This document shows, one piece after another, positions 2,486-57,280 of a stretch of DNA of 64,000 nt. The position numbers and the translations under genes were made by a program. Origin of the DNA: an uncultured bacterium (GTDB taxonomy: Bacteria > Omnitrophota > Omnitrophia > Omnitrophales > Aquincolibacteriaceae); NCBI GenBank assembly GCA_964410905.1, contig CAYPIR010000002.1, forward strand, positions 78,665 to 142,664. Reading direction: 5' to 3'. The notes beneath the pieces are model-generated. The model did no database searches and was not told where the DNA came from. It saw only the letters and a list, made by a program, of their open reading frames with translations. The stretch's first letter is position 1. Each line of letters begins with the position of its first letter.

Positions 2486-3896
2486 GAAAGTAAAAGATTT
2501 CCCGATTACGCCCGGCGTTTATGTCATGAGAAACGCGCGAGGAGACGCGATTTATATCGGCAAAGCCAAATCTCTTAAAAAACGAGCGCTGTCGTATTTC
2601 CGCATTCCCGCGCCTACGCCAAAAATCACGGTGTTGATGGAGAAAGTCGAAAGAATAGATTACATAGACACGCCTACGGAAATGGACGCGCTTTTGCTGG
2701 AAGCGCATCTTGTTCGCAAACACCAACCACGCTACAATCAAGAATTAAAAGACGACAAAAGTTTCCCGCTGCTAAAAATCACAAAAGAAAAATTTCCAAG
2801 ACTTTCCATTACGCGGCGAAAAGAAGATAAGAACGCGATTTATTACGGACCATACACAAGCTCACTTTTGCTAAAACAGGCGATCAATTTAATTCAGGCG
2901 CTTTTCCCAATACGGAAATGCCGAACATTGCCCAAGTCCGCGTGTCTTTATTTTCATATCGGTCAATGCGTTGCTCCCTGCATACATCCCGAAGTCCGAC
3001 CCAAATACGATTTGCTTATAGAAGAACTCAAAACATTTTTAGGCGGAGGGAAGAAAAGTTTTGTTCAATATTTGAAAGAGAGAATGGAAGATGCAAGCAA
3101 GGCGACTAAATTTGAGGAAGCGAAATTCTTTAAGGACCAAATTGACGCTTTGGGGAAGTTGAAGAGAAAAAGATTTTTTCCCAAAAATCCCGGCAAAGGC
3201 ATTTCTCTATCAGCCACTTTGGAATTAAAAGAAACTTTAAACCTTGCTAAAATTCCCGCGCGAATAGTTTGTTTTGATGTGTCGAATGTTCAAGGGAATA
3301 AATCTGTCGCGTCCCGCGTGGCTTTTTACCGCGAGTTTCCAGATAAGGCTTCGTATAGGCGATACCGCATAAAAGACATTTCGGGGATAAACGACTATGC
3401 GATGATTTCGCAAGCGTTGACGCGGATGATACGAGGAATTAACGAGAGGCGAGAAAGATTTATTCCCGACCTTATTGTGATAGACGGCGGGCTTGGACAT
3501 TTGAACGCGGCGATAAAAATATTGCGGCAAGAAAAAATGGAAAATGTGGAAATCGTTTCCATTGCTAAACAGTTTGAATGGATTTATTCGCCGAAATTTT
3601 TGCGGCCGATTGTTTTCGATTCGACTTCGCCGGCGATTTATCTTTTGAAAAAAATTCGCGATGAAGCCCATCGTTTTGCGATTACATATCATAGAAGTCT
3701 AAAGTCTAAATCTTTGGAAGAATCTGAGCTTGATAAAATAGAAGGCATTGGGGTGAAGCGAAAGCGGCTCTTACTCAAAAAATTTGAAAATATAGATAAA
3801 ATTCGAGATACTTCCATCAATGAAATCGCGAAAATAGACGGTTTTGACATTAAAATCGCGAAAAAAATTATAGAATTTTTAAATAGTAAAATATAG
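2469..3896 (+). CDS. uvrC: excinuclease ABC subunit C (short form)
   Basis: N-terminal GIY-YIG nuclease (PGVYVMRN…IYIGKAKSLKKR), an RNase H-like endonuclease domain and a C-terminal HhH. It overlaps the murJ stop by 17 nt. Confidence 0.8.
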   Translation: MKKLREKVKDFPITPGVYVMRNARGDAIYIGKAKSLKKRALSYFRIPAPTPKITVLMEKVERIDYIDTPTEMDALLLEAHLVRKHQPRYNQELKDDKSFPLLKITKEKFPRLSITRRKEDKNAIYYGPYTSSLLLKQAINLIQALFPIRKCRTLPKSACLYFHIGQCVAPCIHPEVRPKYDLLIEELKTFLGGGKKSFVQYLKERMEDASKATKFEEAKFFKDQIDALGKLKRKRFFPKNPGKGISLSATLELKETLNLAKIPARIVCFDVSNVQGNKSVASRVAFYREFPDKASYRRYRIKDISGINDYAMISQALTRMIRGINERRERFIPDLIVIDGGLGHLNAAIKILRQEKMENVEIVSIAKQFEWIYSPKFLRPIVFDSTSPAIYLLKKIRDEAHRFAITYHRSLKSKSLEESELDKIEGIGVKRKRLLLKKFENIDKIRDTSINEIAKIDGFDIKIAKKIIEFLNSKI

Positions 3897-4021: not shown

Positions 4022-7000
4022 GTGATGCCCAATCTGATGAAAAAACATCTTTCTAAAACCTCAATACAAAGCTGGATTGAATCGCGATTTGTCCGCAGGC
4101 TGGTCGCGTCTTTAGTAGGGGTGTTTTTTATCTCTTCTAACATTCTTTATCCTACCGCCTTTGCAACGCCTAAGCCCATTGCTTTACAAGAAAAAATACA
4201 AAAGAAAGACGGCTTTGAAATACCCGAAAGTTTGGGAACGGTGATAAGCACAAGTTTAAATGCGCAAGAAAAAATACCGAATGTTTTTTTAATACAAGAC
4301 GCGCACGCGATCCCGAGCGCTCAAAAAAACCTTGGAAAATTGACTCAATATTTACAAGAAAATTATGGAATTCAAACGGTCGCGTTAGAAGGCGCGGACG
4401 GCGAAATTGACGCGACTCTTTTTAAAACATTTCCTGACAAACAAAAACGCGATGGATTTTTTAATGATCTGCTTGAACGCGGCGAGATTTCCGGAGTCGC
4501 GACGGCGAGCGTACTTTCTCAATTTCCATCAAAATACATAGGCTTGGAAGATTGGGCCCTTTATCAAAAAGGGACTGAGAGTTTTCTGAAAAGTATGGAG
4601 ACTAAAAGCGAGAAGATTGGAGAACTGGAGCTTTTAAAACAAAATCTTCAAAAATTAAAAAATAAATATTTCTCGAAAGAGCTGCTTGAATTTAACTATG
4701 AACAAACCAGGTGGGAAGAAGAGACAAGGAACATAGCGAGCTTTTTGAAATATCTTCTGCGGTATAAAAACTTAGCAGATACGGAAAGTGAAATTTTAAA
4801 TATTTTAAAAATCATAGACGAAGAAAACAAAGAACTGGATGCCCAAACTAACGCGGAAATAAAAGCGCTTGCGGAGCGAATCGAAAAGAAACTAAAAGAC
4901 AAAACGGAAATAATTAAATTTAATAAATTAAAACAAGAAGTTCAAACCTCACAAATCAACAAAATAGAATTTTTAAGTGAAAGCGTGAAGCTTTTGCCTG
5001 AGGAAATAGCGGATGTCTCGCCGACGGTTTGGCAAAAAGTTTTACAACATAGACGGCTGAACGCTTTGACAGGAAAAGAGTTTTTAAATTCTCTTGAGAG
5101 TTTCCTTGAGAACGTTGAGAAAAATCTTATTTTTTCCAACGCGGAAAAACAAATTTTAAAAATGGACGAGCAGTTGCTTTTATTGGGCAAGCTTTTTAGA
5201 TTAGAACTTACGCGCGGCTCTTTGAAAAAAATAAAAAAATTTTTTAGTGAAAATGTTTCTAGTAAAAATGCTGACATCGCGGAATTAAACGAAAGCATTT
5301 ATAAGTTTGCCAAGAATTCTTCGAATGATGTTTTTTATAATTTTTACAATATAGCCGAAGAGCGCGAAACTGTTTTTGAACAGAAACTTTTCTTACTAAA
5401 GAATTTATCCGACGTTTTAGTTGTTTTGGGCGGGTTTCACACTGACGCGGTAGCGGAAAAGCTCAGGTCTAAAAATATTTCTTACGCGATTATTTCGCCT
5501 GTCATAAAAGACATTCCCGCGGACGATCGCTACCTTAAACAAATGACGGGCAATGTGTCTTGGTCCAAATATTTTGTTTTGAATAATGGACAAATAAACT
5601 TGTATGACTCTTTAGCAAGAGCGTTTGTCGATAATGTTCGTGTCAAAGGCAATGTCGAGGACGCGAAACTTTGGCGTAATGAAATTATCCGTTTACTCGC
5701 TGGACAAAAGAGAGTTTCTGAATACGGTAAATACGCGGCTTATATTGCGGATGAGAATTTTAAAAAGAAAAAATCGGAATGGATTGTCAAACTCCAATCG
5801 TTTATTGAACGGCTCAAGTTTTTTGACCGCAATGGGCAGCTTACCGAACAAAACATTGCTAGCATTTTTGCCGCGCAAACCCATCAAACCCCATATGCTG
5901 TGGCGTCATTTGTGCCCAATACACAAATACAGGTTTCGTTTCCCTCTGCGCAGAATGACAAAACCGTCCGCTCTGAATCAAGAACTGATTTTGAAACGCG
6001 CCGTTCCTTTCGTTTTAACAATCACTATGGAATTCATATTCGCCCCAGTTCACTTCTCGCAGATTTTGCTTGGAAATCATTTGAAAAACTTGGACTGAAA
6101 GTTTCCATTAGAAAAAATAACGAAGAGCTTATCCCGATGACTTCCACTTTTCTTATTCGCGAACTTGGAATTGCCAGCGGCGACCAAATTGAAATTTTAA
6201 TAGAAGGCGAACAGCCTCAAACGCTTCGCGAGCAAGTCGCGAACCTTATTGAACAAGTTATTTCAGATAGCAATATGCTTGAAGAAGAGGGAATTGAGAA
6301 TCCTAAATATGAGTTATACGTTGAAAAGTTAAATAAAATTTCGGAACAGCAGACGTTTGACATTGATGATGCCGCGCAATCCGCTTTAGAAAATAGCAAT
6401 GGACGGTTTTTAAGTTGGATCGCGGAAAAAGGATTTGGAGGAATTGTTAGTTTTGCAAATGCTGCCGCAGACCACTTTTCAAATATTGGGAAGAAGTCTT
6501 TGGATGTGGATTTTGATGAAATCGAGTTTTATTATCAGAATGAAATAGTTCGCGGTTATCCATCTATAAAAAGCCGAATGCTTGGAATTGTAAACACCAA
6601 AGGAATATTTATTTTTAACGCGCGTGTCCAAGATGAAAAGAACGCGCTCGCGTTTGGTATTTATCCTGAGGATTATCAGCCGTCAAGCCGAAGCGGTTCC
6701 GTTGTGAAAATGAGACATAAAAACATTCCAAATCCCGGGCATGGCGATGGAGTTCTTGAATGCGTCTTCCAAAATGTCGGTGAAGTTCCTAAATTGCTGA
6801 TGGTGCCTGTTTTTCCCGGTAGAAAAGCTGCCGCGGAAGATTTTAGAAAATATACTAGCGATGCCGCGAGACTTGCCAGATTTTTGATTGTGGCTGGAAT
6901 GCCTAAAGCCACCCGCCTTGATGAAGCGACTCAATACGATATTGTTGATTTTATAAAAAAAGGCGGCGGCGACATCCGTTCGGAGCAGCTTCAAACGCTT

Positions 7001-10000
7001 AACGATTTGATCCGTCTTGATGAAGAAGATTTTCTTGAATCTAATTTTGAAAATGATGCTGATGAACAAATTCAGCGAAGTGAGACGCGCGGCAAAAGCG
7101 ATAGCCGGCAAAACTTGGGGGAAATTGAATTTTATGTGCGCGACGAAATGAAGTCGAAGGAAGAGACCAAAAAATTTCTTGCTGAAATTAATGCCAGTAA
7201 TAGAGAGTATATTTTTGTGGCGAAACAGCCAGAAGAAACTCTCCAAATAAACTTTGGAGTTCGCGGCAGTGATTTTCATGATGAACTTGGTTCTGAGATA
7301 GAAGGTTCTTTGTCCGGTGTGATTTATTCAGAATCTGGCGAGCGGGAAATTATTTTGGTGCCCAATTTCGAGAACCGCGTTTTTGGAAATTTTGGAAAAG
7401 CAATTAAAGATATAAAAAGAGTCTCGGGAATTTTAATTGAAAATGGATTGTCAAAAGATATTAAGATCGGTAAAGGTAACAAGAACGGAATTGCCAAGCT
7501 TTACAGACAGGCATTTGATAGTGAACCGCCTAGTTTGCCAGAAACGCTTGGTGATTTAGCCGAACTAATAACTAAGGATGAAATTGACGCAAGACGAGTT
7601 CAAGAGAGCATCGCGAAAAGTGAAGTTCGAAGCTATAGCGAAAGCAATTTTATAAATAAATCCCTAAACGCGATGAAAAAACTCCCTCCTGCCGTAAATG
7701 GCAAACCTCAGAAAGTAAGCGTGGTGATCTCTACAAAAAATGGTGATAGGTTTTTTTCTCCGGAAGAAAACAGAAACGGGCAAGACTCGCTTCTTGTAAA
7801 GATAGAGCAGCTTCAAGAGCTCTTTTCGCTCAATCCATCATATGACTGGGAACTTATTATTGTCGATGACAATTCGCCAGACGGACGAACGGGAAAACGA
7901 ATTTTAGAAAAAGCGAAGCTGCTCTATCCTGATGATGTTGAGAAAGGAAAAATCCGCGTCCTTTTTTCTCAAAATAAAGAGAGTAGAAAAGGCGGAGCTA
8001 TAGTTTATGGGATATCAGACGCGCTGAGCGAATATTCTGACTATATTGTTTACACGGATGTGGATTTATCAACTGATTTGCGGCAAATAGGATTATTGCT
8101 AAACAGTCTTGTAGTTGAGAAAAATGGAATTGCCATCGGTTCACGAAGGCTAAAAAAATCCCAAACTATCGGCAGGACAAATTACAGAGAATTTTCCAGC
8201 TGGTTTTACAATAATCTCGTAGGGCTGATTCTCCCGCTTTTGAGAAATATAAAAGACACGCAATGCGGATTTAAAGCAATGAGCCGTGATGCCGCGCTTG
8301 AAACGATGCCTTTTGTAAAAGATTTCGGGATGTCTTTTGACACGGAAATTTTGTTGCTCGCCAGAGAAAAAGGGTTATCAATTGAAGAGATTCCAATTTA
8401 TTGGGAGGATTATCGCGGCGGAACATCTATTGTGGTCGCGAGCGAGACATTAAAAATGATTCAAGGGTTGCTAGATCAAAGCTTGCGGCATCAAATTCGT
8501 GAATCCCAATATTGGCCTATAGGAACACAGAAACCTTTGGCAATGATAGCGACTCAAGCCGCTAAAGAAGCAATATCTGTACTGAAAGCGATTTTAAAAG
8601 GTTTTATGCCATTGAGGGAGATTGCGGAAAGACCTAGCGGCGTCAAAATTGGCGAGGAGTTACGTTCAATTGAAAATAGTAAAAAAAATCTCGCGGAATT
8701 TATCAAAAATGGAACGAAAGGAAAATTTTGGGCGGAGGATAAAACATCTGTTGAAGACAAAATCGCGATTATTAATAGCGATTATGGCATAAATCTTCTT
8801 AGCGATAGCGAAGTGGTGCTACTCGAGGGCTTTTCGGATAGACCACAGCGTCCGATCTTAATAACAGCTCAAGATGGAAAACAGTATGTGTTCAGACGAT
8901 TTTTTACAGACTTAGAAAAAACTAAATTTGTAGTTTCGTATCAGAAACATTTTAATCAAAAAAATATCGATGAAGTCCCGCGGCTTATTCCGCGTAAAAA
9001 TATGTCGGGCGATCGGGCTGAGGATTATGTTTCTAAAATAGGAGATTATTATTATGTTCTTGAAGAAGCTCGTTTTGAAGGTCATATAGTCGATTACAAG
9101 GACGCGACAGAAAAACATTTTGAAACCATAGGAAAAACCATCGCTCGATTCCAAAATATCTCAGACGGTTTTGCCCCTGAAGGAGAGAAAACGGATGAAA
9201 CGTTAATAGGCGTTTTGAAGGCTAGAGATGATTTGGAAACGTTGCTGAAACTAACGAAACGGAAAAGTGAAATCGCAGGGTTTGAAAATTTATCGTCTGC
9301 TGAAAAAATTTTTATCAAAGCAATTCCATTTTTACTTCAACAAATGGAAATTTTAAGCGCAAATCTCCCAGAATCTCTTTACGAACAATTACCCCAAGCG
9401 TTGACCGAATGCGATATTGGTTTTCACAATATGCGATTCAGTGAAAATGGTGAAGACGCGCCTTCGGTTTACGATTTTGAACTTGTCCGCAAACAACCGC
9501 GCATTCAAGATTTTAGAAATTCAATGACAACTTTTGGGATGTCAACGGGACGCAGATATGACCGTAAGCTAATGGAAGGAATTTTAGGCGGATATGAAAA
9601 AGCGATTAAAACACCTTTGACGGAAGAAGAAAAAAGAGCAATCCCGGAAATCATACGCGGAACATTTTTGTGGACGTTTGTGGGGCTTTTTTTTGTTCAA
9701 GAAGAAAAAATCAATAATAATGAAAACCTTAGAAAGACAGTAGAATTATCGTTTGCCGATTTTCAAAAATTTGCTGAGGATTTTTCGAGCGGGAACATCA
9801 TTGGATTGTCATCTGATGCGGCTCAAGGCGATGGTGCGATAAGAAGCGAAAACCTCTCTGACGACTATCGTCCTTCGCTTATGGCGGAATTGCTTTTTAT
9901 TTCTAACCAAATCGAGGATATCCAAATTATCTTAAATGAATTAAGAAAATTTAGGCACAGCGATGAAGAACAACAAGCGTTAGAAAAAATTGAACAAGCT

Positions 10001-13000
10001 TTAGAAAGAGTATCGTTAGAAGTGATGCAATTTGTAAATGTACAGGGAGATTTTTATGATGAGGAAGGTTATTTTAAGAATGTGTCGGAGGCTTGGAAAG
10101 AAGCTAGACGATGTTTGAATGGATATTCGGAAATAGCCTCGGAAGAAAAACAAAACCGCATTAAAGATGTTGATGTTCGCTTGTATCGTCTAGCGTCGCG
10201 TTTGGCGGGTCTTTTTGAGGCTAAGGAAGTTGCTGTTGTCGAAGAAATAGGGAAGGTTGAAAAAATAAATGACGCGGATGATTTTGAGGGATTTGTCTCT
10301 GATCTTTTGTATAGGCTTAATAAAGACAGTTCGAATTATATTTTTTTGACAGAGATTTTAAAAAATCCACAAAAATATGAAACGAATTTTTTAAATCATA
10401 TTGGCAAAATGATTCTTGGTAAATTAAGCGAAGACTTTGATTCTGCGAAGCAGTTTGTGGATTCTTCTCAGCTGATTTTAGATAAAGAAGGGTTTATGTC
10501 TTGGCGCAAGGCGTTAGTTGAAAACAACAGCATGTTTGTGAAGGAGTTTGAAAAGATTGTGCCAAAAAGAAAAGATGTTTCCATAGATCTTTATGGACAA
10601 ATGCTCTTTTTTATCGGAGAGGGATTTGATCGTTATTTTGAAATTATTTATGACAAGCTTATTGGAACAAAACCTCCTGTAGCTATTTATAACCCTAAAC
10701 GTTCATATCATGCGCGTGCAATGAGCTCGGTTCATATGCGGACAAAGCATTTGCTTTTTGGCGAGAAAACAGCAGACGATAAATATAAAGACAGCCGAAT
10801 AACATACTTGGATGACGAATTTGATCAGCGGTCGTCCGCCAACGCGGAAAAAGTAAAAAAAGCAATTAATATATGGAAAGATGTCGCGGCTAAAGACAAA
10901 CTCGAAATGCTGAGAAGAATAGACAATTTTCTCGAGACAACTTGGGTTGAAGAAATTGCGGAGCAAGGTGAAAAAATATCACCACTTGTGTTGATAGTGG
11001 CTGATGCGGAAGCAAACGTTGCGCGTGTTGTCCACACCGACAGATTGTCCAGGACATTGTTTTTTACTAAAGCGTATTTAGACACGTTAGATATAAATAA
11101 CGATGCTGACATGAGAGAACTGGCTGTTTGGCTTAATGTAAGCCAGAACTGGTTAGACCAGAGCGAAAAGAAATCAGCAGATGTGTCGAATTTGGAAAAC
11201 GATAGAAAAGTAGAAGACAATAAACAAGATTTGAATCGCCGTTTTTTTGAATTGGAAGACACGGGGCTGCTTTCCACGGATGAATTAAAACAAAGGCTTA
11301 GCCGTTTGATGAGAAATCATATTTTGAATCGATATCATTTTTTTGTAGGACGAGTGGCAGAAAAAGAAGAGCAGGCTTTCAAGTTGATAAAACTGGGAGA
11401 ACAGCGGATTCGTGATTTCTCCAAACATCCCGAATGGAATGAAGTCGTGGAATTGCGAGATCCTTTTCGCGATGCGGTAAAACCGCTTAAGGATTTAATT
11501 TTTCAATATGAGGCAATGGGAATGCGCAAGCAAGTTGATATTGCGTTTCAGCGTTTTCTTTACGCTATTTCAATGGTGCAGAAATTTGATCCAGGCGGAC
11601 TTTTGCCTTGGGGATTCCAGGTGGATTTGATTTTTATGTCCCTCAGACTTGATTATTGGGGACACTTTAAAAATGAAGTCGAGCTGTTTCTTACAGGCAG
11701 AGAATCGGATACTTGGGAGCCGAATGCGCGGGAAAATCAAGAAGAACAAAAAAGTTGGAAACGCGGATTTTGGAGAAGAGGGTTTCCAAGAAAGTTTTCA
11801 TCAATTAATGCTTACGAAATAGAATATTACTCGCTGCGCGCTAATGGTTGGCGTTTTTTTAGGCGTCTAAAATTAGAAATGATGGCGCAACTGAGTGCTT
11901 CATATCCTGAGCACCGCTTAAAGCGAAGTGCTATAGTGCGAAGCATTTACGAGCTTCTTGAAGAGTCGCAAAAGAATCCTTTGAAAAGTTTGAAAGAAAA
12001 GATAGCCGCACGAGGAGAGGCTTTAGAACTCGAAGAACTTTTCCCTAAGGCGCGGTCAGTGGAGCGTGAAATAAATCCGCTTGGAAGCAAGCTTGAAACA
12101 GGGGATGGAATGGTAGTTTACGATATTGAAAACGCAAAGAGTCGTCCAAGTGATTTGTTTGAAGAAGAAAAGCCTTGGTGGGTTTGGGGAGGCTCTAGCG
12201 GGCTTATCCGTTATTCGTCTTGGTGGAACGCGTTTCGTAGCCTTTTGCATGTTTATGAAACGGAGTTTAATCGTCTGCCTAAGCATCCCGAGGCGAAAAA
12301 CAAGTTAAATAAATGGAAAAATGTTTTTGCCAAAGACTTGTTGGAAATCGGGGGAATGAAATTTGATAAGTTGAAAACAAAACTAAGCTTGATTGAAACA
12401 AAATTGAGCGAAGGAAACATTGATGCTGTCCGGAAAAACGCGTTTGGTTTGAGACGACTCAGATGGCTGCGTTCAGAGCCTGAATTAAAACCCATGATAA
12501 ATCTTGCGGAGGAAATAAGCCGTTTGGCGGAGGATTCGCCTATTCGTAATAAAATAAAAATGGAAGAAGTAATTAAAAAGTTGAAAGAACGGCTTGCTCT
12601 GGCGGAAAGTTTGATAACCTTTCTAAGGGTTTATCACGAGATTTATTTTAAGTTGAGAATGGAAGAACAAGTACCGCATAGCTTTGCGGTTGATAAGGCT
12701 TTTAGAATGTCTTTAGAGAAATGTCGGGAAACGACAGACGCGATGAAATTACTTTTCTTTCAGTTTGTTTATTTTTCCAGAAAAAGAAACGCAAGTGATT
12801 TTGAATGGTTGTCGCATGTGATTATGTCGACTTTTGTCCGAAAGAACACACAACAAATGCTGCTTCCTCTCGATGAATCTTTCGTGATTCCCCAAAATGT
12901 GGAACGGCAAGCGTTGCCTGAAATTGTCAATGTGTTTATTCGAGTTTTGGATCTTCACAAAGATTTAATTACCCCAAATGGCTATGAGAAAATAGACATT

Positions 13001-13924
13001 GATGGAGCTGTTTTCCGTTCGGAAACTAGAGCGAAAATAATCGAGACTATTGTCGGGAGTGCTGTTGAAAATAAAAAACCGAATGATGAAACCGTTCAAA
13101 AATTCCGCTCGGAAATTTACAGCGAGGGGTTGGAAACAATAGAGAAGCGGCTTTGGGACGCATTTAACAATGTTTTTATCCCGACCGCGATGGCGAATAT
13201 AACGTCCGATGGGCTATTGGTGAACGCTTATGCCGAATTGGAGAAAATGCTTGTTGAAAGTAAAATTTCTTCAACCGAATTTAGCAACGCGGCGGATTTT
13301 ATATTTAACAACCAATTGAAAAGTCTTAGTGAATCTATAGAAAAAAAAGAGATAGAGGTCGCCGCGCCGATTATATTTTATTCGAATACGGAAATTATGC
13401 GTAATAGGCTGTTTGAATTTATTAAAACTATTCAGCAAGGCTTAGAATCGAATAATTATCAAATCTTTATTGTTTGTGAAAGCCGCAAAGAAGTTCAATC
13501 TCTTAGGACAGAACTTGGGCAACGGAAAATGTCGCAAGGGGTGAGAGTTTTAGGGGAAGAGGGAATGGATAACGCGGTCGAAGAAATGAGGAAATCTGTT
13601 TTTGAAAATAAAAAATTCAGTGAATCTTTTGGAGCTTTCTTTCCTTCAGGCGATGTGGCGATGAAAGTTACTGATTGGAAGCGTAAGGTTCATAACGAAA
13701 TTCCTGAAGAGTATGCTATGTTATTGCTGCCCGCGCTTACGAAATATTTTGCGGTGACACGAAACAAGGATTTGAACAGTGAAACTCTTGCCATCGCTTT
13801 GCAAAAAGCGTTTCCTGATATTTCTTCTTCTGTTAAATTTCAAACAGAACGCGGGATTGTCATTGCTATAGAGGTTTTGCAATCTATCATAGCCGCTGTT
13901 CGGCAGATTGCGACAGCTGCGTAG
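4022..13924 (+). CDS. giant 3300-aa multidomain protein: signal peptide/anchor + TraB/TIKI-like + HPr-like + GT2 glycosyltransferase + kinase-like + long unassigned helical C-terminal region
   Basis: One uninterrupted 9903-nt ORF. All antisense ORFs across it are short and low-complexity. The N-terminus has a basic n-region, a hydrophobic stretch and AFA-TP. The embedded domains are listed as separate features below. Confidence 0.8.
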   Translation: MMPNLMKKHLSKTSIQSWIESRFVRRLVASLVGVFFISSNILYPTAFATPKPIALQEKIQKKDGFEIPESLGTVISTSLNAQEKIPNVFLIQDAHAIPSAQKNLGKLTQYLQENYGIQTVALEGADGEIDATLFKTFPDKQKRDGFFNDLLERGEISGVATASVLSQFPSKYIGLEDWALYQKGTESFLKSMETKSEKIGELELLKQNLQKLKNKYFSKELLEFNYEQTRWEEETRNIASFLKYLLRYKNLADTESEILNILKIIDEENKELDAQTNAEIKALAERIEKKLKDKTEIIKFNKLKQEVQTSQINKIEFLSESVKLLPEEIADVSPTVWQKVLQHRRLNALTGKEFLNSLESFLENVEKNLIFSNAEKQILKMDEQLLLLGKLFRLELTRGSLKKIKKFFSENVSSKNADIAELNESIYKFAKNSSNDVFYNFYNIAEERETVFEQKLFLLKNLSDVLVVLGGFHTDAVAEKLRSKNISYAIISPVIKDIPADDRYLKQMTGNVSWSKYFVLNNGQINLYDSLARAFVDNVRVKGNVEDAKLWRNEIIRLLAGQKRVSEYGKYAAYIADENFKKKKSEWIVKLQSFIERLKFFDRNGQLTEQNIASIFAAQTHQTPYAVASFVPNTQIQVSFPSAQNDKTVRSESRTDFETRRSFRFNNHYGIHIRPSSLLADFAWKSFEKLGLKVSIRKNNEELIPMTSTFLIRELGIASGDQIEILIEGEQPQTLREQVANLIEQVISDSNMLEEEGIENPKYELYVEKLNKISEQQTFDIDDAAQSALENSNGRFLSWIAEKGFGGIVSFANAAADHFSNIGKKSLDVDFDEIEFYYQNEIVRGYPSIKSRMLGIVNTKGIFIFNARVQDEKNALAFGIYPEDYQPSSRSGSVVKMRHKNIPNPGHGDGVLECVFQNVGEVPKLLMVPVFPGRKAAAEDFRKYTSDAARLARFLIVAGMPKATRLDEATQYDIVDFIKKGGGDIRSEQLQTLNDLIRLDEEDFLESNFENDADEQIQRSETRGKSDSRQNLGEIEFYVRDEMKSKEETKKFLAEINASNREYIFVAKQPEETLQINFGVRGSDFHDELGSEIEGSLSGVIYSESGEREIILVPNFENRVFGNFGKAIKDIKRVSGILIENGLSKDIKIGKGNKNGIAKLYRQAFDSEPPSLPETLGDLAELITKDEIDARRVQESIAKSEVRSYSESNFINKSLNAMKKLPPAVNGKPQKVSVVISTKNGDRFFSPEENRNGQDSLLVKIEQLQELFSLNPSYDWELIIVDDNSPDGRTGKRILEKAKLLYPDDVEKGKIRVLFSQNKESRKGGAIVYGISDALSEYSDYIVYTDVDLSTDLRQIGLLLNSLVVEKNGIAIGSRRLKKSQTIGRTNYREFSSWFYNNLVGLILPLLRNIKDTQCGFKAMSRDAALETMPFVKDFGMSFDTEILLLAREKGLSIEEIPIYWEDYRGGTSIVVASETLKMIQGLLDQSLRHQIRESQYWPIGTQKPLAMIATQAAKEAISVLKAILKGFMPLREIAERPSGVKIGEELRSIENSKKNLAEFIKNGTKGKFWAEDKTSVEDKIAIINSDYGINLLSDSEVVLLEGFSDRPQRPILITAQDGKQYVFRRFFTDLEKTKFVVSYQKHFNQKNIDEVPRLIPRKNMSGDRAEDYVSKIGDYYYVLEEARFEGHIVDYKDATEKHFETIGKTIARFQNISDGFAPEGEKTDETLIGVLKARDDLETLLKLTKRKSEIAGFENLSSAEKIFIKAIPFLLQQMEILSANLPESLYEQLPQALTECDIGFHNMRFSENGEDAPSVYDFELVRKQPRIQDFRNSMTTFGMSTGRRYDRKLMEGILGGYEKAIKTPLTEEEKRAIPEIIRGTFLWTFVGLFFVQEEKINNNENLRKTVELSFADFQKFAEDFSSGNIIGLSSDAAQGDGAIRSENLSDDYRPSLMAELLFISNQIEDIQIILNELRKFRHSDEEQQALEKIEQALERVSLEVMQFVNVQGDFYDEEGYFKNVSEAWKEARRCLNGYSEIASEEKQNRIKDVDVRLYRLASRLAGLFEAKEVAVVEEIGKVEKINDADDFEGFVSDLLYRLNKDSSNYIFLTEILKNPQKYETNFLNHIGKMILGKLSEDFDSAKQFVDSSQLILDKEGFMSWRKALVENNSMFVKEFEKIVPKRKDVSIDLYGQMLFFIGEGFDRYFEIIYDKLIGTKPPVAIYNPKRSYHARAMSSVHMRTKHLLFGEKTADDKYKDSRITYLDDEFDQRSSANAEKVKKAINIWKDVAAKDKLEMLRRIDNFLETTWVEEIAEQGEKISPLVLIVADAEANVARVVHTDRLSRTLFFTKAYLDTLDINNDADMRELAVWLNVSQNWLDQSEKKSADVSNLENDRKVEDNKQDLNRRFFELEDTGLLSTDELKQRLSRLMRNHILNRYHFFVGRVAEKEEQAFKLIKLGEQRIRDFSKHPEWNEVVELRDPFRDAVKPLKDLIFQYEAMGMRKQVDIAFQRFLYAISMVQKFDPGGLLPWGFQVDLIFMSLRLDYWGHFKNEVELFLTGRESDTWEPNARENQEEQKSWKRGFWRRGFPRKFSSINAYEIEYYSLRANGWRFFRRLKLEMMAQLSASYPEHRLKRSAIVRSIYELLEESQKNPLKSLKEKIAARGEALELEELFPKARSVEREINPLGSKLETGDGMVVYDIENAKSRPSDLFEEEKPWWVWGGSSGLIRYSSWWNAFRSLLHVYETEFNRLPKHPEAKNKLNKWKNVFAKDLLEIGGMKFDKLKTKLSLIETKLSEGNIDAVRKNAFGLRRLRWLRSEPELKPMINLAEEISRLAEDSPIRNKIKMEEVIKKLKERLALAESLITFLRVYHEIYFKLRMEEQVPHSFAVDKAFRMSLEKCRETTDAMKLLFFQFVYFSRKRNASDFEWLSHVIMSTFVRKNTQQMLLPLDESFVIPQNVERQALPEIVNVFIRVLDLHKDLITPNGYEKIDIDGAVFRSETRAKIIETIVGSAVENKKPNDETVQKFRSEIYSEGLETIEKRLWDAFNNVFIPTAMANITSDGLLVNAYAELEKMLVESKISSTEFSNAADFIFNNQLKSLSESIEKKEIEVAAPIIFYSNTEIMRNRLFEFIKTIQQGLESNNYQIFIVCESRKEVQSLRTELGQRKMSQGVRVLGEEGMDNAVEEMRKSVFENKKFSESFGAFFPSGDVAMKVTDWKRKVHNEIPEEYAMLLLPALTKYFAVTRNKDLNSETLAIALQKAFPDISSSVKFQTERGIVIAIEVLQSIIAAVRQIATAA
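4270..5530 (+). other. TraB/GumN/TIKI-like domain inside the giant ORF, with a large coiled-coil insertion
   Basis: The N-terminal motif VFLIQDAHAIPS matches the family GTxHV signature. The following …TVALEG… matches V.vEl. The C-terminal motif DVLVVLGGFHTDAVAEKLRSKNISYAII matches vvVGagHl.G…L…Gy.v. Confidence 0.35.
5996..6270 (+). other. HPr-like phosphocarrier domain inside the giant ORF
   Basis: FRFNNHYGIHIRPSSLLADFAWKSFEKLGLKVSIRKNNEELIPMTSTFLIRELGIASGDQIEILIEGEQPQTL aligns to the HPr consensus N..GlHARPA…KS.m.lm.LGi..G..i.i.aeG.de. The active-site His in GIHIRP is conserved. Confidence 0.6.
7710..8480 (+). other. GT2 glycosyltransferase domain (DPM1/GtrB-like) inside the giant ORF
   Basis: VSVVISTKNG…WELIIVDDNSPDGRTG (DXD), GGAIVYGISDA…DYIVYTDVDLSTD, and QCGFKAMSRDAALE are typical GT2 family-2 motifs. 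Confidence 0.7.
8800..9700 (+). other. protein-kinase-like (APH/choline-kinase family) domain inside the giant ORF, possibly catalytically atypical
   Basis: The N-lobe LLEGFSDRPQRPILITAQDGKQYVFRRF matches the PF01636 consensus L.gG.sN..y.v...dg..yVlRr. The catalytic segment IGFHNMRFSENGEDAPSVYDFE has Brenner-motif H-N-M in place of H-N-D, with the conserved Asn and DFE retained. Confidence 0.4.
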
Positions 13925-28661: not shown

Positions 28662-28682
28662 TCACTTCTTGTATAAAAACAA

Positions 28683-28727
28683 AATCCGATACCTTCTGAC
28701 TTTACAGAAAGTATCGGATTTTTTTTA
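28683..28727 (+). terminator. Rho-independent terminator after the nrdDG-PilZ unit
   Basis: aatccgataccttctg-acttta-cagaaagtatcggatt: 16-bp stem with one mismatch, then a T8 run. Confidence 0.7.
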
Positions 28728-28920
28728 ATACACTTTTATTATCAGAATGGGTTCTGAAACTCCTTGTGAGGGGTTATCTTGAGCCCCTCCTCTGCGCACT
28801 TGTTATAGAACTTTTGTTTTAGTCCTTCTTGGTTAGTTTCCATAAAATTACTATTTAGTAATCATTCCTATTTGTCAACTGTGTTAATTAACAACAATGG
28901 AAATGACTACATAGATCGTT

Positions 28921-28934
28921 CCCCCCCCCCCCCC
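28921..28934 (+). repeat. homopolymeric C14 tract
   Basis: Read directly: 14 consecutive C in a non-coding region. Confidence 0.9.
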
Positions 28935-29030
28935 TTCTGTATAACAGACGTTTTCCAGTGAAGCAAGCGGTCTAGATCAACAGGCGGGATATGAGGAGAT
29001 GTTTATCAAGATCCGGTCTTTTCTCCTGAG

Positions 29031-29761
29031 CTAACTGTCACGGTGTTTTGTGTTCCTTGTAAGAGTTGAGTCTGTAAAGATTGAAAAAGAGCTGGGCATG
29101 TGTGAGTGAGCGTTGATTGGCGAAAGCGAGAAAAAGGACGCCGCAGGATACCTCACGATAAGTGTACTAGACCTTGGGAAGACCGCAGGACTTGGTCTGG
29201 AGGAAATGCTCGGGAATATCCATAAGGTCTTTGGTGTCCTCCATGTCAAACTGGAAGAGTTGAAAGAGTTTTTTAACAACTCGGAGATTGTTTTTGGCGA
29301 CGTGTTTCTTAGGTCGCCTTCTCGAACGGATTAGTTCAGCACCAACGCGTTTGTAGGTAAGCTTTAGGGTGATGACATGGTTTTTGACAGACTGGGGGGC
29401 TCTTGGAAAATGAAGCGCTCCGCGGGAGCAGTCAGCAAGACCGAAGTAGCCTTAGGCATTGAATCGGTGAATCCATTTTCCGATAATAGGCGGGCTTGCG
29501 TGAAAAGACTTCGCGGCAGGTTTGACGCTATGTGAGAAGACGTATTGGAGCAATTGTTATCGCCACTGTTTTTTATCTTTCGTGTGTCGCAAGATTTGAC
29601 TGTGTTGGTATGGACAGATGCAGTTTAGACCTTCTTTGGTTTTGGAGAGACTTTAGGAGTTCTATTAAGTGCCTTTTTTCTTTTTCAAGGTTGATATTTT
29701 CGGTTTCGACTAAATCGTTGTTACCATTTTCTGACTTGCTCCCGGCGGCGTAAGTTGGCAT
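29031..29761 (-). mobile_element. degenerate IS630/Tc1-mariner-like transposase remnant (HTH region, interrupted by stops and frameshifts)
   Basis: Minus-strand translation across ~29370-29500 gives …VFSHSVKPAAKSFHASPPIIGKWIHRFNA*GYFGLADCSRGALHFPRAP…, resembling the IS630 N-terminal HTH …vS..tV.kWv.RfneeGl.GL.DrprsGrP. Local GC is visibly higher than flanking DNA. The + strand ORF 29113..29334 is probably its antisense shadow. Confidence 0.3.
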
Positions 29762-30016
29762 CGTTACAGCGGATAGCGTTTATTGGTTCATAAGGCGTTT
29801 GGGACACAACATTTTTAGTTTTTTCGCCGGCGAGGAGATATGTCCTTTTTCGGCTTTTTCCGTGTTGTTGATAGTTTGAGCAACTGCTGAAAAGAAATAA
29901 AACTCTGATAAACCTCGTCTCATACCTTGGGATTAATACACAAAATCTTTAAAATTCGCTCTCACACAGAGGGTAACGATCTATGGTGCCATTCTCAAAC
30001 AATTAATAAATAGAGT

Positions 30017-30045
30017 TTGACAAACAGTTGTAGATGGTAAATACT
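30017..30045 (+). promoter_or_regulatory. candidate sigma-70 promoter for cspA with a ~185-nt 5' UTR
   Basis: TTGACA (30017-30022), then a -10 as TAAATA at 15 nt spacing or AATACT at 17 nt. Long leaders are typical of cold-shock genes. Confidence 0.35.
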
Positions 30046-30229
30046 CCATATGCTTTTTTAGGAGGTAAGGCGATTTGCAGTCTGCAATTAGTTTCCCGCC
30101 AAAGAAAGTTCCTTGAAAAAGGATCAGTTTAGCAAGACCAGTTCCAACTGTAACAGGTTGATTTTTGCTGTCGTGAAGGTTGAACTTGTCATGCATTAAA
30201 ATCAATACAAATAAGGAGCAACATCAATC

Positions 30230-30430
30230 ATGGTGCAAGGTAAAGTAAAGTGGTTCAACAATTCTAAAGGCTACGGTTTTATTTCTCGCGAAGGCGGAGC
30301 AGATGTGTTCGTTCATCATACCGCAATTCAAGGGGAAGGCTACAAGTCTTTGGAAGAAGGTCAAGCGGTAGAATTTGAAGTAACCAAAGGACCTAAGGGC
30401 GAACAAGCGTCTAATGTTGTAAAGCTCTAA
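30230..30430 (+). CDS. cspA: cold-shock protein
   Basis: [14 protein letters not shown]…VFVHHTAI: RNP1/RNP2 motifs. AAGGAG RBS. Confidence 0.9.
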
Positions 30431-56102: not shown

Positions 56103-57278
56103 ATGAACGAAAAACTAGAATTCTTAAAGCGTCTTAAACCAAAACTTTCGCTTATCGAAAAAGATTCTTTATACGAACAACTTCTTGATGCTGTCGCTAG
56201 CCAAACGCTTCTGATAGACACTATTGAAAATTTAGAAGAAACCGTTTTTCTAACAAACGATATCGCTCAAACAATTTACGCGAATCAAAAAGCAGCTGTA
56301 ACGCTTGGCGTCTCGCTAACCAAAACTCGCAGATTTGTATGGGAACAAATAGCGGACGATTCAATCAGCCGTTTTTTAGAACATAATTTGTTGAAAACAA
56401 AAAATAAAACGGTTCGTGATTTTAAAGTCATTACACCGCGAGAACTGATTCTTAGACTCACTGTAATTCCTCTTGAACAAAACGATAAAAAAATATTCGC
56501 GCTCATTTTTAACGACATCTCATCGCGACGCAGCAAAGAATCCGAAGCTCTCATACTATCCAAGATGGAAAGTCTTGTCCGTCTTGCAAGCGGGATCGCT
56601 CACGAAATCGGCAATCCGCTAAACGCCATCACAATACATCTTGAAATCTTAAAAAAGCGGCTTTCTTCGTTGCCGAGTAACAAACGGCAAGTATTAAATG
56701 AGTCTTTGATGGAAATCCAAGATGAAACACGAAGACTGGATAAAGTTATTCGAAATTTTTTAAAAGCCACGCGAAAGCCTCCGCTTCGTTTTCGCCAAGA
56801 CAGCTTGAATGAAATAATCGGCGAGGCATTGTCATTTATGAAACCGCAGCTTGCACGCGGCAATATACATTCACAGGTTAAATACGATGAAAGTTTGCCG
56901 TCATTTTTGATGGACAAAGACAGACTTTATTCAGTGTTCATTAATCTCATTAAAAATGCTGAAGAGTCCATGTCGGGACGCGACGGAACATTAAAAGTTC
57001 AAACAGCAAGAAAAAACAACTGCGCGGTTATCAGTATTACCGACACGGGCTGCGGAATAGATAAAAAAAATATCGATAAAATTTTCGACATCTACTACAC
57101 AACCAAAAGAGAAGGCTCTGGGCTGGGATTGATGATGGTATATGATTCAATCGCTGAACACGGCGGAAAAATCGAAGTCAAAAGCAAATTGCAAAAAGGC
57201 ACAACATTTAAAATAATTTTGCCGATACGTGAGCCGCAGCTTCAATTGCCTCATTATCAAAGTAGCGCGGAGGAATAA
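56103..57278 (+). CDS. cytoplasmic sensor histidine kinase
   Basis: H-box SGIAHEIGNPLNAI; HATPase N/G boxes (NLIKNAEES…, TDTGCGI, GSGLGL). No TM segment. Confidence 0.7.
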   Translation: MNEKLEFLKRLKPKLSLIEKDSLYEQLLDAVASQTLLIDTIENLEETVFLTNDIAQTIYANQKAAVTLGVSLTKTRRFVWEQIADDSISRFLEHNLLKTKNKTVRDFKVITPRELILRLTVIPLEQNDKKIFALIFNDISSRRSKESEALILSKMESLVRLASGIAHEIGNPLNAITIHLEILKKRLSSLPSNKRQVLNESLMEIQDETRRLDKVIRNFLKATRKPPLRFRQDSLNEIIGEALSFMKPQLARGNIHSQVKYDESLPSFLMDKDRLYSVFINLIKNAEESMSGRDGTLKVQTARKNNCAVISITDTGCGIDKKNIDKIFDIYYTTKREGSGLGLMMVYDSIAEHGGKIEVKSKLQKGTTFKIILPIREPQLQLPHYQSSAEE

Positions 57279-57280
57279 CT

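What the first reader, a model, noticed from the sequence alone, without database searches (positions are those of the whole stretch)
5996..6270. HPr-like phosphocarrier domain with conserved active-site His, embedded at residues ~660-750 of the giant protein
HPr is normally an ~88-aa stand-alone PTS protein, or is fused only to other PTS modules. Here a near-full-length HPr fold sits in the middle of a 3300-aa protein: GIHIRPSS, the TSTF region corresponding to the Ser46 loop, and LGIASGDQIEILIEGEQ. His retention suggests it is phosphorylatable. That would make the giant protein a possible target or branch of PEP-dependent phosphorelay or HprK-type regulation. No other PTS genes are in the window.
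Basis: partly seen in the sequence, partly recalled or inferred. Interest (0 to 1): 0.8.

Follow-up and report, generated by a model that had tools for sequence, protein, structure and literature searches.

The report
HPr-like cassette in an Omnitrophota giant protein
The giant protein does contain a real but divergent copy of the small sugar-signalling protein HPr with its phosphorylatable histidine intact; it is one swappable module in a family of huge, probably exported, multi-enzyme proteins of Omnitrophota bacteria, so it is unlikely to belong to an ordinary sugar-uptake system.

Summary
Residues 661-744 of the 3,300-aa ORF (window 4022-13924) match Pfam PF00381 above its curated cut-off. 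A high-confidence AlphaFold model (pLDDT 93) matches only HPr, Crh and NPr structures. The His15, Arg17, Pro18 and Ser46 equivalents are present (H672, R674, P675, S708).

The protein belongs to a large Omnitrophota-specific family of giant paralogues. They share only an N-terminal signal-peptide-like sequence and a ~600-aa module, which I find has a TIKI/erythromycin-esterase/ChaN-like fold with conserved His and acidic residues. After that module they carry different enzyme cassettes, often separated by a strongly over-represented RSExR pentapeptide.

HPr-like cassettes recur in this family, and all 13 copies examined keep the His. Three giants have an Enzyme-I-like cassette just upstream in the same polypeptide. 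Three have a GT2 glycosyltransferase cassette downstream. This copy belongs to a subfamily with a ~35-aa helical C-terminal extension.

The window holds no other PTS gene. Phosphorylation was not tested, and the predicted export conflicts with a cytoplasmic PEP relay. I read it as a new variant of a known domain: a phospho-His carrier or switch cassette internal to the giant family.

The parts
4022..13924 (+). Giant ORF, 3,300 aa from GTG 4022 (3,299 aa from ATG 4025, identical to database protein P0001). It lies between uvrC and metH.
   Evidence: The 3' 667 codons plus metH are also present on an independent Logan contig, L001.
4022..4165 (+). N-terminal signal-peptide-like segment: a basic region, the hydrophobic stretch LVASLVGVFFISSNILYPTAFA, then TPKP. 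It is the only clear hydrophobic segment, apart from a possibly amphipathic C-terminal helix.
   Evidence: Kyte-Doolittle scan. Homologues have classic AxA-type signal peptides. No dedicated signal-peptide predictor was available.
4154..5941 (+). Conserved N-module (aa ~45-640), the only part shared with the other ~120 Omnitrophota giants. It has a predicted TIKI/erythromycin-esterase/ChaN/TraB/RRSP-like fold with a large helical insertion. Invariant residues are D93-x-H95 (4298-4306), E123 (4388-4390) and GGFH473 (5429-5440).
5969..5983 (+). RSESR pentapeptide (aa 650-654), in the low-confidence linker between the N-module and the first strand of the HPr-like domain.
   Evidence: The linker has low pLDDT in both models.
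5993..6268 (+). HPr-like core domain (aa 658-749; Pfam 661-744). H672 (6035-6037) corresponds to His15, R674 to Arg17, P675 to Pro18 and S708 (6143-6145) to Ser46.
6269..6367 (+). C-terminal helical extension of the HPr-like domain (aa 750-782, D-x3-L-E ... NP.Y..Y...I). It defines an Omnitrophota subfamily.
   Evidence: invariant D, L, E, Y; helices 100-104 and 111-132 of the model
6488..7042 (+). Unknown ~185-aa domain, copy 1 (aa 823-1007). It is also present in the relative P0123.
7076..7090 (+). RSETR pentapeptide (aa 1019-1023) between the two copies of the unknown domain.
7091..7591 (+). Unknown domain, copy 2 (aa 1024-1190), 23% identical to copy 1.
7616..7630 (+). KSEVR (aa 1199-1203), a motif variant just upstream of the GT2 cassette.
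7781..8296 (+). GT2 glycosyltransferase domain (aa 1254-1425), similar to dolichol-phosphate-mannose synthase. The homologous cassette lies next to the HPr-like cassette in P0123 and P0126.
8861..9598 (+). APH-type kinase-like region (aa 1614-1859). The match is just below the Pfam cut-off.
   Evidence: 22.3 bits against a cut-off of 23.2
9599..13921 (+). About 1,440 aa with no family match. Parts are co-linear with P0123 (aa 1948-2637, 2714-2956, 2999-3062). It contains a further RSETR at aa 2999-3003 (13016-13030).

Best explanation
Shown: aa 658-782 form a genuine, divergent HPr-family domain with the phosphorylatable His retained, followed by a subfamily-specific helical extension. It is one modular cassette of an Omnitrophota giant protein. 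That protein's architecture is a signal-like N-terminus, a conserved TIKI/Ere-like N-module, and then variable enzyme cassettes set off by RSExR linkers.

Inferred: the cassette acts as a phospho-histidine carrier or switch within a phosphorelay internal to the giant-protein family, not within a sugar PTS. It would take a phosphoryl group on H672 from an Enzyme-I-like or PPDK-like cassette. In this protein that donor would have to be on another giant (in trans). In relatives the donor-like cassette lies upstream in the same polypeptide.

Inferred: the cassette passes the phosphoryl group to, or controls, the neighbouring cassettes. The DPM-synthase-like GT2 that travels with it in three giants is the first candidate. 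Whether this happens in the producer's cytoplasm or elsewhere is not settled.
For: The domain is real.

His and Pro18 are invariant in all 13 giant-embedded HPr-like copies, at pairwise identities of roughly 20-35% to this domain (measured for 9 of the 13), while Arg17 and the Ser46 position vary. That pattern points to selection on the His.

Three family members have an Enzyme-I-like cassette followed by an HPr-like cassette in cis. In P0029, PEP-utilizers_C lies at 1466-1639 and HPr at 1890-1969. In P0068, the mobile and PEP-binding domains lie at 1639-2127 and the HPr-like domain at 2276-2377. In L012, the Enzyme-I-like segment lies at 1971-2330 and HPr at 2465-2538. P0068 keeps motifs resembling the TSH, RTE, GTND and CGE catalytic motifs of Enzyme I as I recall them.

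Further giants of the family carry PF02896, PF00391 or PF01326.

The positional orthologue (uvrC ... giant-metH) in GCA_035352955.1 has PPDK_N upstream of its HPr-like cassette in one open frame.

The HPr-like cassette lies next to a homologous GT2 cassette in P0123 and P0126, and close to one here.
Against: No phosphorylation data exist.

No Enzyme-I-like or PPDK-like sequence is present in this protein or anywhere in the 64-kb window. The rest of the genome could not be retrieved.

The domain scores below the NCBIfam HPr-family cut-off and fails the recalled HPr His and Ser signatures.

The N-termini of this protein and of the family look like cleavable Sec signal peptides. That would put the cassette outside the cytoplasm, where PEP is not expected.

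The closest GT2 homologues (51-56% identity; L006, L011, L026) have no HPr-like cassette within their first ~3,500 aa, so the HPr-GT2 link is not universal. The three HPr-GT2 cases may reflect one inherited block rather than three independent associations.
Confidence: 0.45

Rival explanations
1. One reading: the giant protein is a branch or target of the bacterium's own classical PTS. Free Enzyme I would phosphorylate H672, and HprK/P would phosphorylate S708, coupling the giant's activity to carbon status.
For: His15, Arg17, Pro18 and Ser46 equivalents are present, and the fold is HPr-like.
Against: The 64-kb window holds no ptsI, hprK, EII or free ptsH. The residues around S708 (PMTSTF) do not fit the recalled Ser46 signature that both control HPr proteins match. 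The Ser column is not conserved across giant-embedded copies. The signal-peptide-like N-terminus argues against a cytoplasmic location. Two full-text searches found no paper discussing a PTS in Omnitrophota: the two papers holding both 'Omnitrophota' and 'phosphotransferase system' are on unrelated subjects.
Confidence: 0.1
2. Exported polyprotein effector. The giant is secreted. The TIKI-like N-module, or another protease, cuts it at the RSExR linkers. The released HPr-like fragment (here aa ~655-1018) acts in a prey or host cell and engages that cell's Enzyme I or its HPr-binding partners.
For: The whole family has signal-peptide-like N-termini, and 37 of 111 members have no further hydrophobic segment.

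The N-module has the fold and conserved His/acid residues of the TIKI/Ere superfamily. That superfamily includes site-specific endopeptidases such as the MARTX effector RRSP (PMC6254334).

RSE[LMIVTF]R occurs 252 times against 3.3 expected, and 134 per 100,000 aa in giant ORFs against 8.6 in ordinary ORFs of the same loci. It lies in A/S/P/E-rich linkers, with a median spacing of 359 aa. The first site usually falls at the end of the N-module.

Motifs bracket the HPr-like cassettes: 22, 28 and 35 aa upstream of the His in three giants (this protein, P0131, P0126), and 86-121 aa downstream in three (P0029, P0131, P0126).

The cargo consists of cytoplasm-type enzymes that could not work in a periplasm.

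Omnitrophota are inferred to be predators or parasites, and cleavage of their giants has been proposed but no cleavage sites are known (PMC10066038; 10.1101/2023.11.21.568195).
Against: There is no evidence of cleavage or delivery. 64 of 124 giants have no strict motif. No translocation apparatus, RTX repeats or cysteine protease domain was detected. The gene sits among core housekeeping genes at a conserved position. The motif could equally be a linker, a modification site or a docking site.
Confidence: 0.15
3. Decayed or repurposed HPr fold. The domain is never phosphorylated and serves as a structural or protein-binding module between cassettes, in the way that Crh and HPr bind partner proteins.
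For: The score is below the NCBIfam family cut-off. The recalled signatures are not matched. Arg17 is lost in 4 of 13 family copies. No donor is present in cis or in the window. Helix A is lengthened and there is an added C-terminal extension.
Against: His and Pro18 are invariant in all 13 copies despite low overall identity, whereas a purely structural module would be expected to let the His drift. Three relatives pair the domain with Enzyme-I-like cassettes.
Confidence: 0.2

Closest known systems
HPr (PtsH), NPr and Crh, the histidine phosphocarrier family (Pfam PF00381)
   Same: It has the same open-faced beta-sandwich fold (TM-score 0.7-0.87 to solved HPr structures). The His sits at the N-cap of helix A followed by x-Arg-Pro, a Ser sits at the N-cap of helix B, and the LGI...G...I...G core motifs are present.
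   Different: Identity to solved HPr structures is about 20-25%, and the score is below the NCBIfam family cut-off. Ile follows the His, and Thr flanks the Ser on both sides. Helix A is about 5 residues longer. There is an added ~35-aa helical extension. The domain is embedded at aa 658-782 of a 3,300-aa protein with a signal-like N-terminus, with no PTS partner in cis or nearby.
Multidomain PTS proteins containing an HPr domain: FPr/FruB, DhaM and the multiphosphoryl transfer proteins (EIIA-HPr-EI fusions). This comparison rests on my own knowledge; NCBIfam models NF008319, NF010351 and NF008478 gave weak matches to the domain.
   Same: The HPr domain is covalently linked to other modules. 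In DhaM the phosphoryl group goes to a non-sugar acceptor, a precedent for an HPr domain serving something other than sugar transport.
   Different: Those fusions contain only PTS modules. Here the partners are a TIKI/Ere-like N-module, a GT2, an APH-like kinase and unknown domains. In family relatives the Enzyme-I-like cassette sits upstream of HPr inside giants of 3,400-4,600 aa.
Omnitrophota giant or 'very long' proteins (West-Roberts et al. 2023 preprint, 10.1101/2023.11.21.568195; Seymour et al. 2023, PMC10066038; 2026 preprint 10.64898/2026.06.07.730766)
   Same: The phylum is the same. Like the 'multi-enzyme' class described there, this protein combines many unrelated Pfam domains with a signal peptide or TM features.
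   Different: Those papers focus on proteins above ~6,700 aa (>20 kb), or 10,000 aa and more. In the text I could search they do not mention HPr, a shared N-terminal TIKI-like module, or an RSExR motif. This protein is a 3,300-aa member at a conserved uvrC-metH position.
MARTX toxins and their RRSP effector domain (TIKI superfamily; PMC6254334)
   Different: No RTX repeats and no inositol-phosphate-activated cysteine protease domain were found. The first acidic residue is Asp, not Glu. Protease activity, cleavage and delivery are all unproven, so the resemblance is an analogy and not a membership claim.

Membership tests
HPr family (PF00381 / TIGR01003) | Match to Pfam PF00381 at or above the gathering score (23 bits) over most of the model | tested here: met
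   30.6 bits for the whole protein and 36.6 bits for the excised domain, covering profile positions 3-80 of 81
HPr family (PF00381 / TIGR01003) | Match to NCBIfam TIGR01003 (HPr family) at or above its cut-off of 47.9 bits | tested here: not met
   30.1 and 36.2 bits. The domain is a divergent member.
HPr family (PF00381 / TIGR01003) | Open-faced beta-sandwich with beta-alpha-beta-beta-alpha-beta-alpha topology | tested here: met
   AF2 model with pLDDT 93.4 and the expected element order. The top 38 Foldseek PDB hits are all HPr, Crh or NPr.
HPr family (PF00381 / TIGR01003) | Active-site His at the N-cap of helix A, followed by x-Arg-Pro | tested here: met
   H672-I-R674-P675 aligns with His15-x-Arg17-Pro18. 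The His is residue 22 of the model, immediately before helix 23-40.
HPr family (PF00381 / TIGR01003) | PROSITE-type His signature G-[LIVM]-H-[STA]-R-[PA]-[GSTA]-[STAMVN] (pattern recalled from memory) | tested here: not met
   GIHIRPSS fails at the residue after His (Ile). The pattern matched the E. coli and B. subtilis control sequences.
HPr family (PF00381 / TIGR01003) | Regulatory Ser46 in its signature context, as the HprK/P substrate (pattern recalled from memory) | tested here: inconclusive
   S708 aligns with Ser46 at the N-cap of helix B. The surrounding signature is not matched, and the column varies among family copies.
HPr family (PF00381 / TIGR01003) | Reversible phosphorylation of the His by Enzyme I with PEP | not testable with these tools
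   Needs biochemistry on the excised domain.
Classical PEP:sugar PTS, as a system | Enzyme I, EII components and/or HprK encoded in the genome, usually near ptsH | tested here: not met
   None is present in the 64-kb window (Pfam on all ORFs of 120 aa or more; six-frame HPr and EI searches). The rest of the genome could not be reached.
Omnitrophota N-module giant family (not described in the papers I searched) | Signal-like N-terminus, then a conserved ~600-aa module with QDAH, EG and GGFH motifs, then variable cargo | tested here: met
   119 homologues share only aa ~50-600, always at their N-terminus. Invariant columns are listed. All 80 genomic loci that carry a phylum-level name are Omnitrophota MAGs (about a third are titled only 'uncultured bacterium'; one is labelled Planctomycetales), with several loci per genome.
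TIKI / erythromycin esterase / ChaN / TraB superfamily (applies to the N-module, not the HPr domain) | Parallel beta-sheet core fold of the superfamily | tested here: met
   [not shown]
TIKI / erythromycin esterase / ChaN / TraB superfamily (applies to the N-module, not the HPr domain) | 2His/2Glu catalytic residues (PMC6254334) | tested here: inconclusive
   D93-x-H95, E123 and H473 are invariant in 15 aligned sequences. The H-to-E spacing of 28 equals that of RRSP. The first acid is Asp, and spatial clustering in the model was not checked.
MARTX-type autoprocessing toxins | RTX repeat regions and a cysteine protease domain that cuts between effector modules | tested here: not met
   No such Pfam domains at E <= 1. 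Only the modular layout and the RSExR linkers are analogous.

The most novel reading that the evidence does not exclude
The Omnitrophota N-module giants are secreted, self-processing effector polyproteins. The conserved TIKI-like N-module cuts at RSExR linkers and releases cargo cassettes, which act inside a prey or host cell. On this reading the HPr-like cassette is a mimic that taps or jams the victim's PEP-dependent phosphorelay, or its HPr-regulated enzymes. It would be the first HPr used as an inter-cellular weapon, and the first defined processing code for bacterial giant proteins.
Probability: 0.1. Interest if true: 0.9.

Novelty: new variant of a known kind. Interest (0 to 1): 0.62.

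Why it matters
HPr is among the best-studied bacterial signalling proteins. As far as I know, it is found either free or fused only to other PTS modules.

Here the His is strictly conserved in an HPr fold that serves as a reusable cassette in giant, apparently exported, multi-enzyme proteins of an uncultivated, probably predatory or parasitic phylum. In some of these proteins an Enzyme-I-like cassette sits upstream. That suggests PEP-type phosphorelay chemistry has been recruited for a purpose unrelated to sugar uptake.

The context found on the way may matter more than the domain itself. The giants share a TIKI/Ere-like N-terminal module and a highly enriched RSExR linker motif. Together these give a concrete, testable handle on an open question raised in the giant-gene literature: whether these proteins are cut into pieces, and where.

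Tried and rejected
- Exact-sequence look-ups of the giant protein, in three forms, returned nothing. The source genome and its PTS complement could not be examined.
- The first genome-contig scan, with the first 1,200 aa, found no relative. The source genome is therefore not among the GTDB species representatives, or the scan patterns missed it.
- The search for homologous proteins found nothing with the HPr domain alone or with the subfamily alignment A4, not even the protein itself. The word index seems not to reach internal segments of giants.
- Alignments A3 and A4 were too divergent for the search for related loci. A narrower alignment, A5, worked.
- A profile of the N-module against PDB sequences gave only noise. 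Only the fold comparison was informative.
- The afdb50 fold library was unavailable.
- I considered that the HPr match might be chance or low-complexity. Pfam coverage, the structure model and the exclusive HPr hits rule this out.
- I considered a Tat signal because of the RR at aa 25-26. No NCBIfam Tat model matched, and only 9 of 111 homologues have an RR motif.
- I considered a mobile-element or viral origin. All neighbours are housekeeping genes in conserved synteny.
- I considered that the HPr-like cassette always follows the N-module directly. This is false: it lies at positions ~1,060 to ~3,700 in other giants.
Full report
**1. The observation**

Window 5996-6270 lies in frame inside a single ORF, 4022-13924 on the + strand (3,300 aa from GTG 4022, 3,299 aa from ATG 4025).

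Pfam finds PF00381 (PTS-HPr) at aa 661-744, covering positions 3-80 of the 81-position model. The score is 30.6 bits for the whole protein and 36.6 bits for the excised segment, against a gathering score of 23. NCBIfam TIGR01003 matches the same stretch at 36.2 bits but below its 47.9-bit cut-off.

phmmer against PDB sequences aligns GIHIRPSS with GIHARPAT of Bacillus HPr, and the Ser of PMTSTF with Ser46.

An AlphaFold2 model of aa 651-783, built with 14 aligned sequences, has pLDDT 93.4 and pTM 0.86. Its element order is beta-alpha-beta-beta-alpha-beta-alpha plus two extra helices. H672 sits immediately before helix A and S708 immediately before helix B.

In a Foldseek search of the PDB, the first 38 hits are all HPr, Crh or NPr (TM-score normalised to target 0.60-0.87, rmsd 1.7-4.6 A). 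The next hit has probability 0.2.

**2. How divergent it is**

Identity to solved HPr structures is about 20-25%.

I recalled two PROSITE-type signatures from memory. Neither matches this domain. The residue after His is Ile rather than Ser, Thr or Ala. The Ser is flanked by Thr on both sides rather than by a basic or Asn/Asp residue before it and a hydrophobic residue after it.

Helix A is about five residues longer than in canonical HPr.

**3. What the giant protein is**

Besides the HPr domain, Pfam finds only two things. One is a GT2 glycosyltransferase at aa 1254-1425 (E 1e-12), whose nearest solved relative is dolichol-phosphate-mannose synthase 5mlz. The other is an APH-type kinase-like region at aa 1614-1859, just below the cut-off.

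A search of 5.8 billion proteins with the whole sequence returned the identical protein (P0001, NCBI, contig of 147,726 bp) and 119 other listed proteins of 1,900-5,750 aa. Where these are named, almost all come from Candidatus Omnitrophota.

They share only aa ~50-600 of the query, and always at their own N-terminus. Beyond that each carries different domains: ABC1 kinases, response regulators, HATPase_c, methyltransferases, radical SAM, J domains, PEP-utilising domains and others.

A genome scan with a narrow alignment of this N-module found 132 matches. All 80 loci kept that carry a phylum-level name are Omnitrophota MAGs (about a third are titled only 'uncultured bacterium'; one is labelled Planctomycetales), with several loci per genome.

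The neighbours in the window are housekeeping genes: holA, murJ and uvrC upstream, then metH, aroQ, accBC, nrdD, PFOR, smc, recA, alaS, his and trp genes, and mreBCD.

The same holA-murJ-uvrC-giant arrangement occurs in at least 14 of the fetched loci, with murJ 61-71% identical. A giant-metH junction occurs in GCA_035352955.1. The gene is therefore a positional orthologue of a core-genome-embedded giant, not an island.

**4. The N-module**

These are the members of the TIKI superfamily as listed in PMC6254334, which describes a 2His/2Glu catalytic set. In the N-module, QDAH (D93, H95), E123 and GGFH (H473) are invariant. The H95-to-E123 spacing of 28 equals that of RRSP H3902 to E3930.

I infer a hydrolase, either protease or esterase. 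This is not shown.

**5. N-terminus and topology**

The only clear hydrophobic segment is aa 24-48, which follows a basic stretch and ends in AFA. The family's N-termini look like classic Sec signal peptides with AxA sites, and 37 of 111 members have no further strongly hydrophobic segment.

No dedicated predictor was available, so export is an inference. It is nevertheless a serious problem for any cytoplasmic PEP-dependent relay. The 2026 preprint raises the same paradox for the very long Omnitrophota proteins.

**6. RSExR motif**

While reading linkers I noticed RSE(L/V/M/A)R.

- In 124 giants, RSE[LMIVTF]R occurs 252 times against 3.3 expected from shuffling.
- In the fetched loci, RSExR occurs 134 times per 100,000 aa in ORFs of 1,500 aa or more, against 8.6 in ORFs of 250-1,200 aa.
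- The flanks are unconserved and rich in A, S, P and E. The median spacing is 359 aa. In 38 of 64 motif-bearing giants the first site lies at aa 500-800, the end of the N-module.

Here the sites are RSESR 650-654, RSETR 1019-1023, KSEVR 1199-1203 and RSETR 2999-3003. The first lies in the low-confidence linker just before the first HPr strand.

In motif-bearing giants the motifs lie close to the HPr-like cassette. Upstream sites sit 22, 28 and 35 aa before the His (this protein, P0131, P0126). Downstream sites sit 86-121 aa after it (P0029, P0131, P0126).

The West-Roberts preprint states that cleavage points in Omnitrophota giants are unknown. This motif is a candidate, but nothing more than that.

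**7. The HPr-like cassette across the family**

An exhaustive phmmer search of 1.84 billion representative proteins with the domain gave 13 hits. The closest are P0121, P0122, P0123, P0125, P0126, P0129 and P0131.

These share a C-terminal extension (D-x3-L-E ... NP.Y..Y...I) and form a subfamily. The named ones, P0123 and P0126, are Omnitrophota. P0123 and P0029 are already labelled 'HPr family phosphocarrier protein' by NCBI, and P0125 and P0129 are labelled 'HPr-like' by IMG.

A profile search of everything fetched shows that several giants carry two or three copies. In all 13 giant-embedded copies the His and the Pro three residues later are kept. Arg17 is kept in 9 of the 13, and the Ser46 column varies.

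Three giants have an Enzyme-I-like cassette directly upstream of the HPr-like one: P0029, P0068 and L012. P0068 retains motifs that resemble the TSH, RTE, GTND and CGE motifs of Enzyme I as I remember them.

**8. Closest relatives of this particular giant**

P0123 is co-linear with this protein over the HPr cassette, the GT2-like region, an unknown ~170-aa domain that is duplicated here, and about 1,000 aa of the C-terminal region. It lies directly upstream of metH.

Its annotated start is internal. The frame is open through all 3,334 upstream codons fetched and contains the N-module motifs. The true ORF is therefore at least 9,900 aa. That upstream part holds LMWPc, PPDK_N, DnaJ, HEAT and HATPase_c domains.

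In P0126 the HPr-like cassette (1302-1431) is followed at once by a GT2 that is 32% identical to the one here. HPr-GT2 is thus a conserved block in three giants.

However, the closest GT2 homologues (51-56% identity; L006, L011, L026) show no HPr-like cassette in their first ~3,500 aa.

**9. Mechanism**

Shown: an HPr fold, a conserved His, modular cassette behaviour, co-occurrence with EI-type or PPDK-type cassettes in relatives, and a link to GT2.

Inferred: the cassette carries a phosphoryl group on H672. It would receive the group from an EI-like or PPDK-like cassette, here necessarily in trans, and would act on or regulate neighbouring cassettes.

The rivals are a branch of the cell's own PTS or HprK circuit, an exported and cleaved effector aimed at a prey cell's PTS, and a non-phosphorylated binding module. 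Each is set out with its evidence in its own section. I put the family-internal relay at 0.45, mainly because of the invariant His and the EI-HPr pairs. The unresolved topology and the lack of any donor in the window hold that figure down.

**10. Comparison with what is known, and novelty**

As a domain it is a divergent member of the HPr family. The Pfam and fold tests are met. The NCBIfam cut-off and the recalled signatures are not.

As a system it is not a PTS: no EI, EII or HprK was found where I could look.

None of the three papers on Omnitrophota giant proteins that I could search mentions HPr, a shared TIKI-like N-module or the motif. Two further full-text searches found no paper discussing a PTS in Omnitrophota: the two papers that contain both 'Omnitrophota' and 'phosphotransferase system' are on unrelated subjects.

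I therefore rate it a new variant of a known kind. The side observations, the N-module fold and the RSExR motif, may be the more useful leads.

Noticed in passing
window 5969-5983, 7076-7090, 7616-7630, 13016-13030; also throughout P0002-P0131 and loci L002-L084: The pentapeptide RSExR (mostly RSELR, RSEVR, RSEMR or RSEAR) is about 75-fold over-represented in Omnitrophota giants: 252 observed against 3.3 expected, and 134 against 8.6 per 100,000 aa compared with ordinary ORFs. It sits in unconserved linkers at domain boundaries, typically first at the end of the N-module. It is a candidate processing or recognition site. The papers I searched do not mention it.
   Followed up: partly
[not shown]
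   Followed up: yes
L082 1-10000 and 10001-29722 (GCA_035352955.1, contig DAOPYQ010000005.1); L008: The NCBI protein HNX68846.1 (P0123, 6,573 aa, 'HPr family phosphocarrier protein') starts at an internal Met. The reading frame is open through all 3,334 codons fetched upstream and includes the N-module, so the real ORF is at least 9,900 aa. It is the positional orthologue (uvrC ... giant-metH) of the window's 3,300-aa gene, which implies very large cassette gain or loss at one locus.
   Followed up: partly
window 6488-7042 and 7091-7591: Two diverged copies (23% identity, E 2e-6) of an unknown ~170-185-aa domain, each beginning with (D/E)IEFY. The domain also occurs in P0123 (aa 553-719). It has no Pfam or PDB sequence match.
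   Followed up: partly
P0129 (3220-3311, 3453-3578, 3702-3819), P0131 (1060-1183, 3529-3650), P0126 (1311-1437, 6304-6397): Single giants carry two or three HPr-like cassettes, all with the His retained. This recalls the repeated carrier domains of megasynthases, or a multi-step relay.
   Followed up: no
P0121 (887 aa), P0125 (472 aa), P0122 (637 aa): The same HPr-plus-extension cassette also occurs in smaller proteins. Some have a different N-terminal domain (LWVNLSP.EK.R...GRDLLAQDY.LKQ), and some have a C-terminal 'TPGGIDLDPR ... LTGL.P.IG.I.P..DLK.LLTQ' tail. Neither element could be identified.
   Followed up: no
window 28730-30100; 28677-28726; 30097-30430: About 1.4 kb has no credible ORF and no Rfam match. 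It lies between a terminator-like hairpin that follows a weak PilZ-like ORF and a cold-shock protein gene (30230-30430). The leader of that gene gives a weak cspA-thermoregulator match (E 0.0056, below gathering score). A 23-nt inverted repeat pair (28902-28924 and 29971-29993) brackets about 1 kb of the gap.
   Followed up: partly
window 1-64000: Every ORF with a family assignment lies on the + strand, and cumulative GC skew rises almost monotonically. This fits a single leading-strand stretch of a replichore. The window holds no tRNA or rRNA genes.
   Followed up: no
window 56103-58645: A histidine kinase and a sigma-54-dependent response regulator (NtrC type) form a pair downstream of the trp genes. 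They are the only conventional signalling genes in the window. No rpoN-linked PTS-Ntr genes are adjacent.
   Followed up: no
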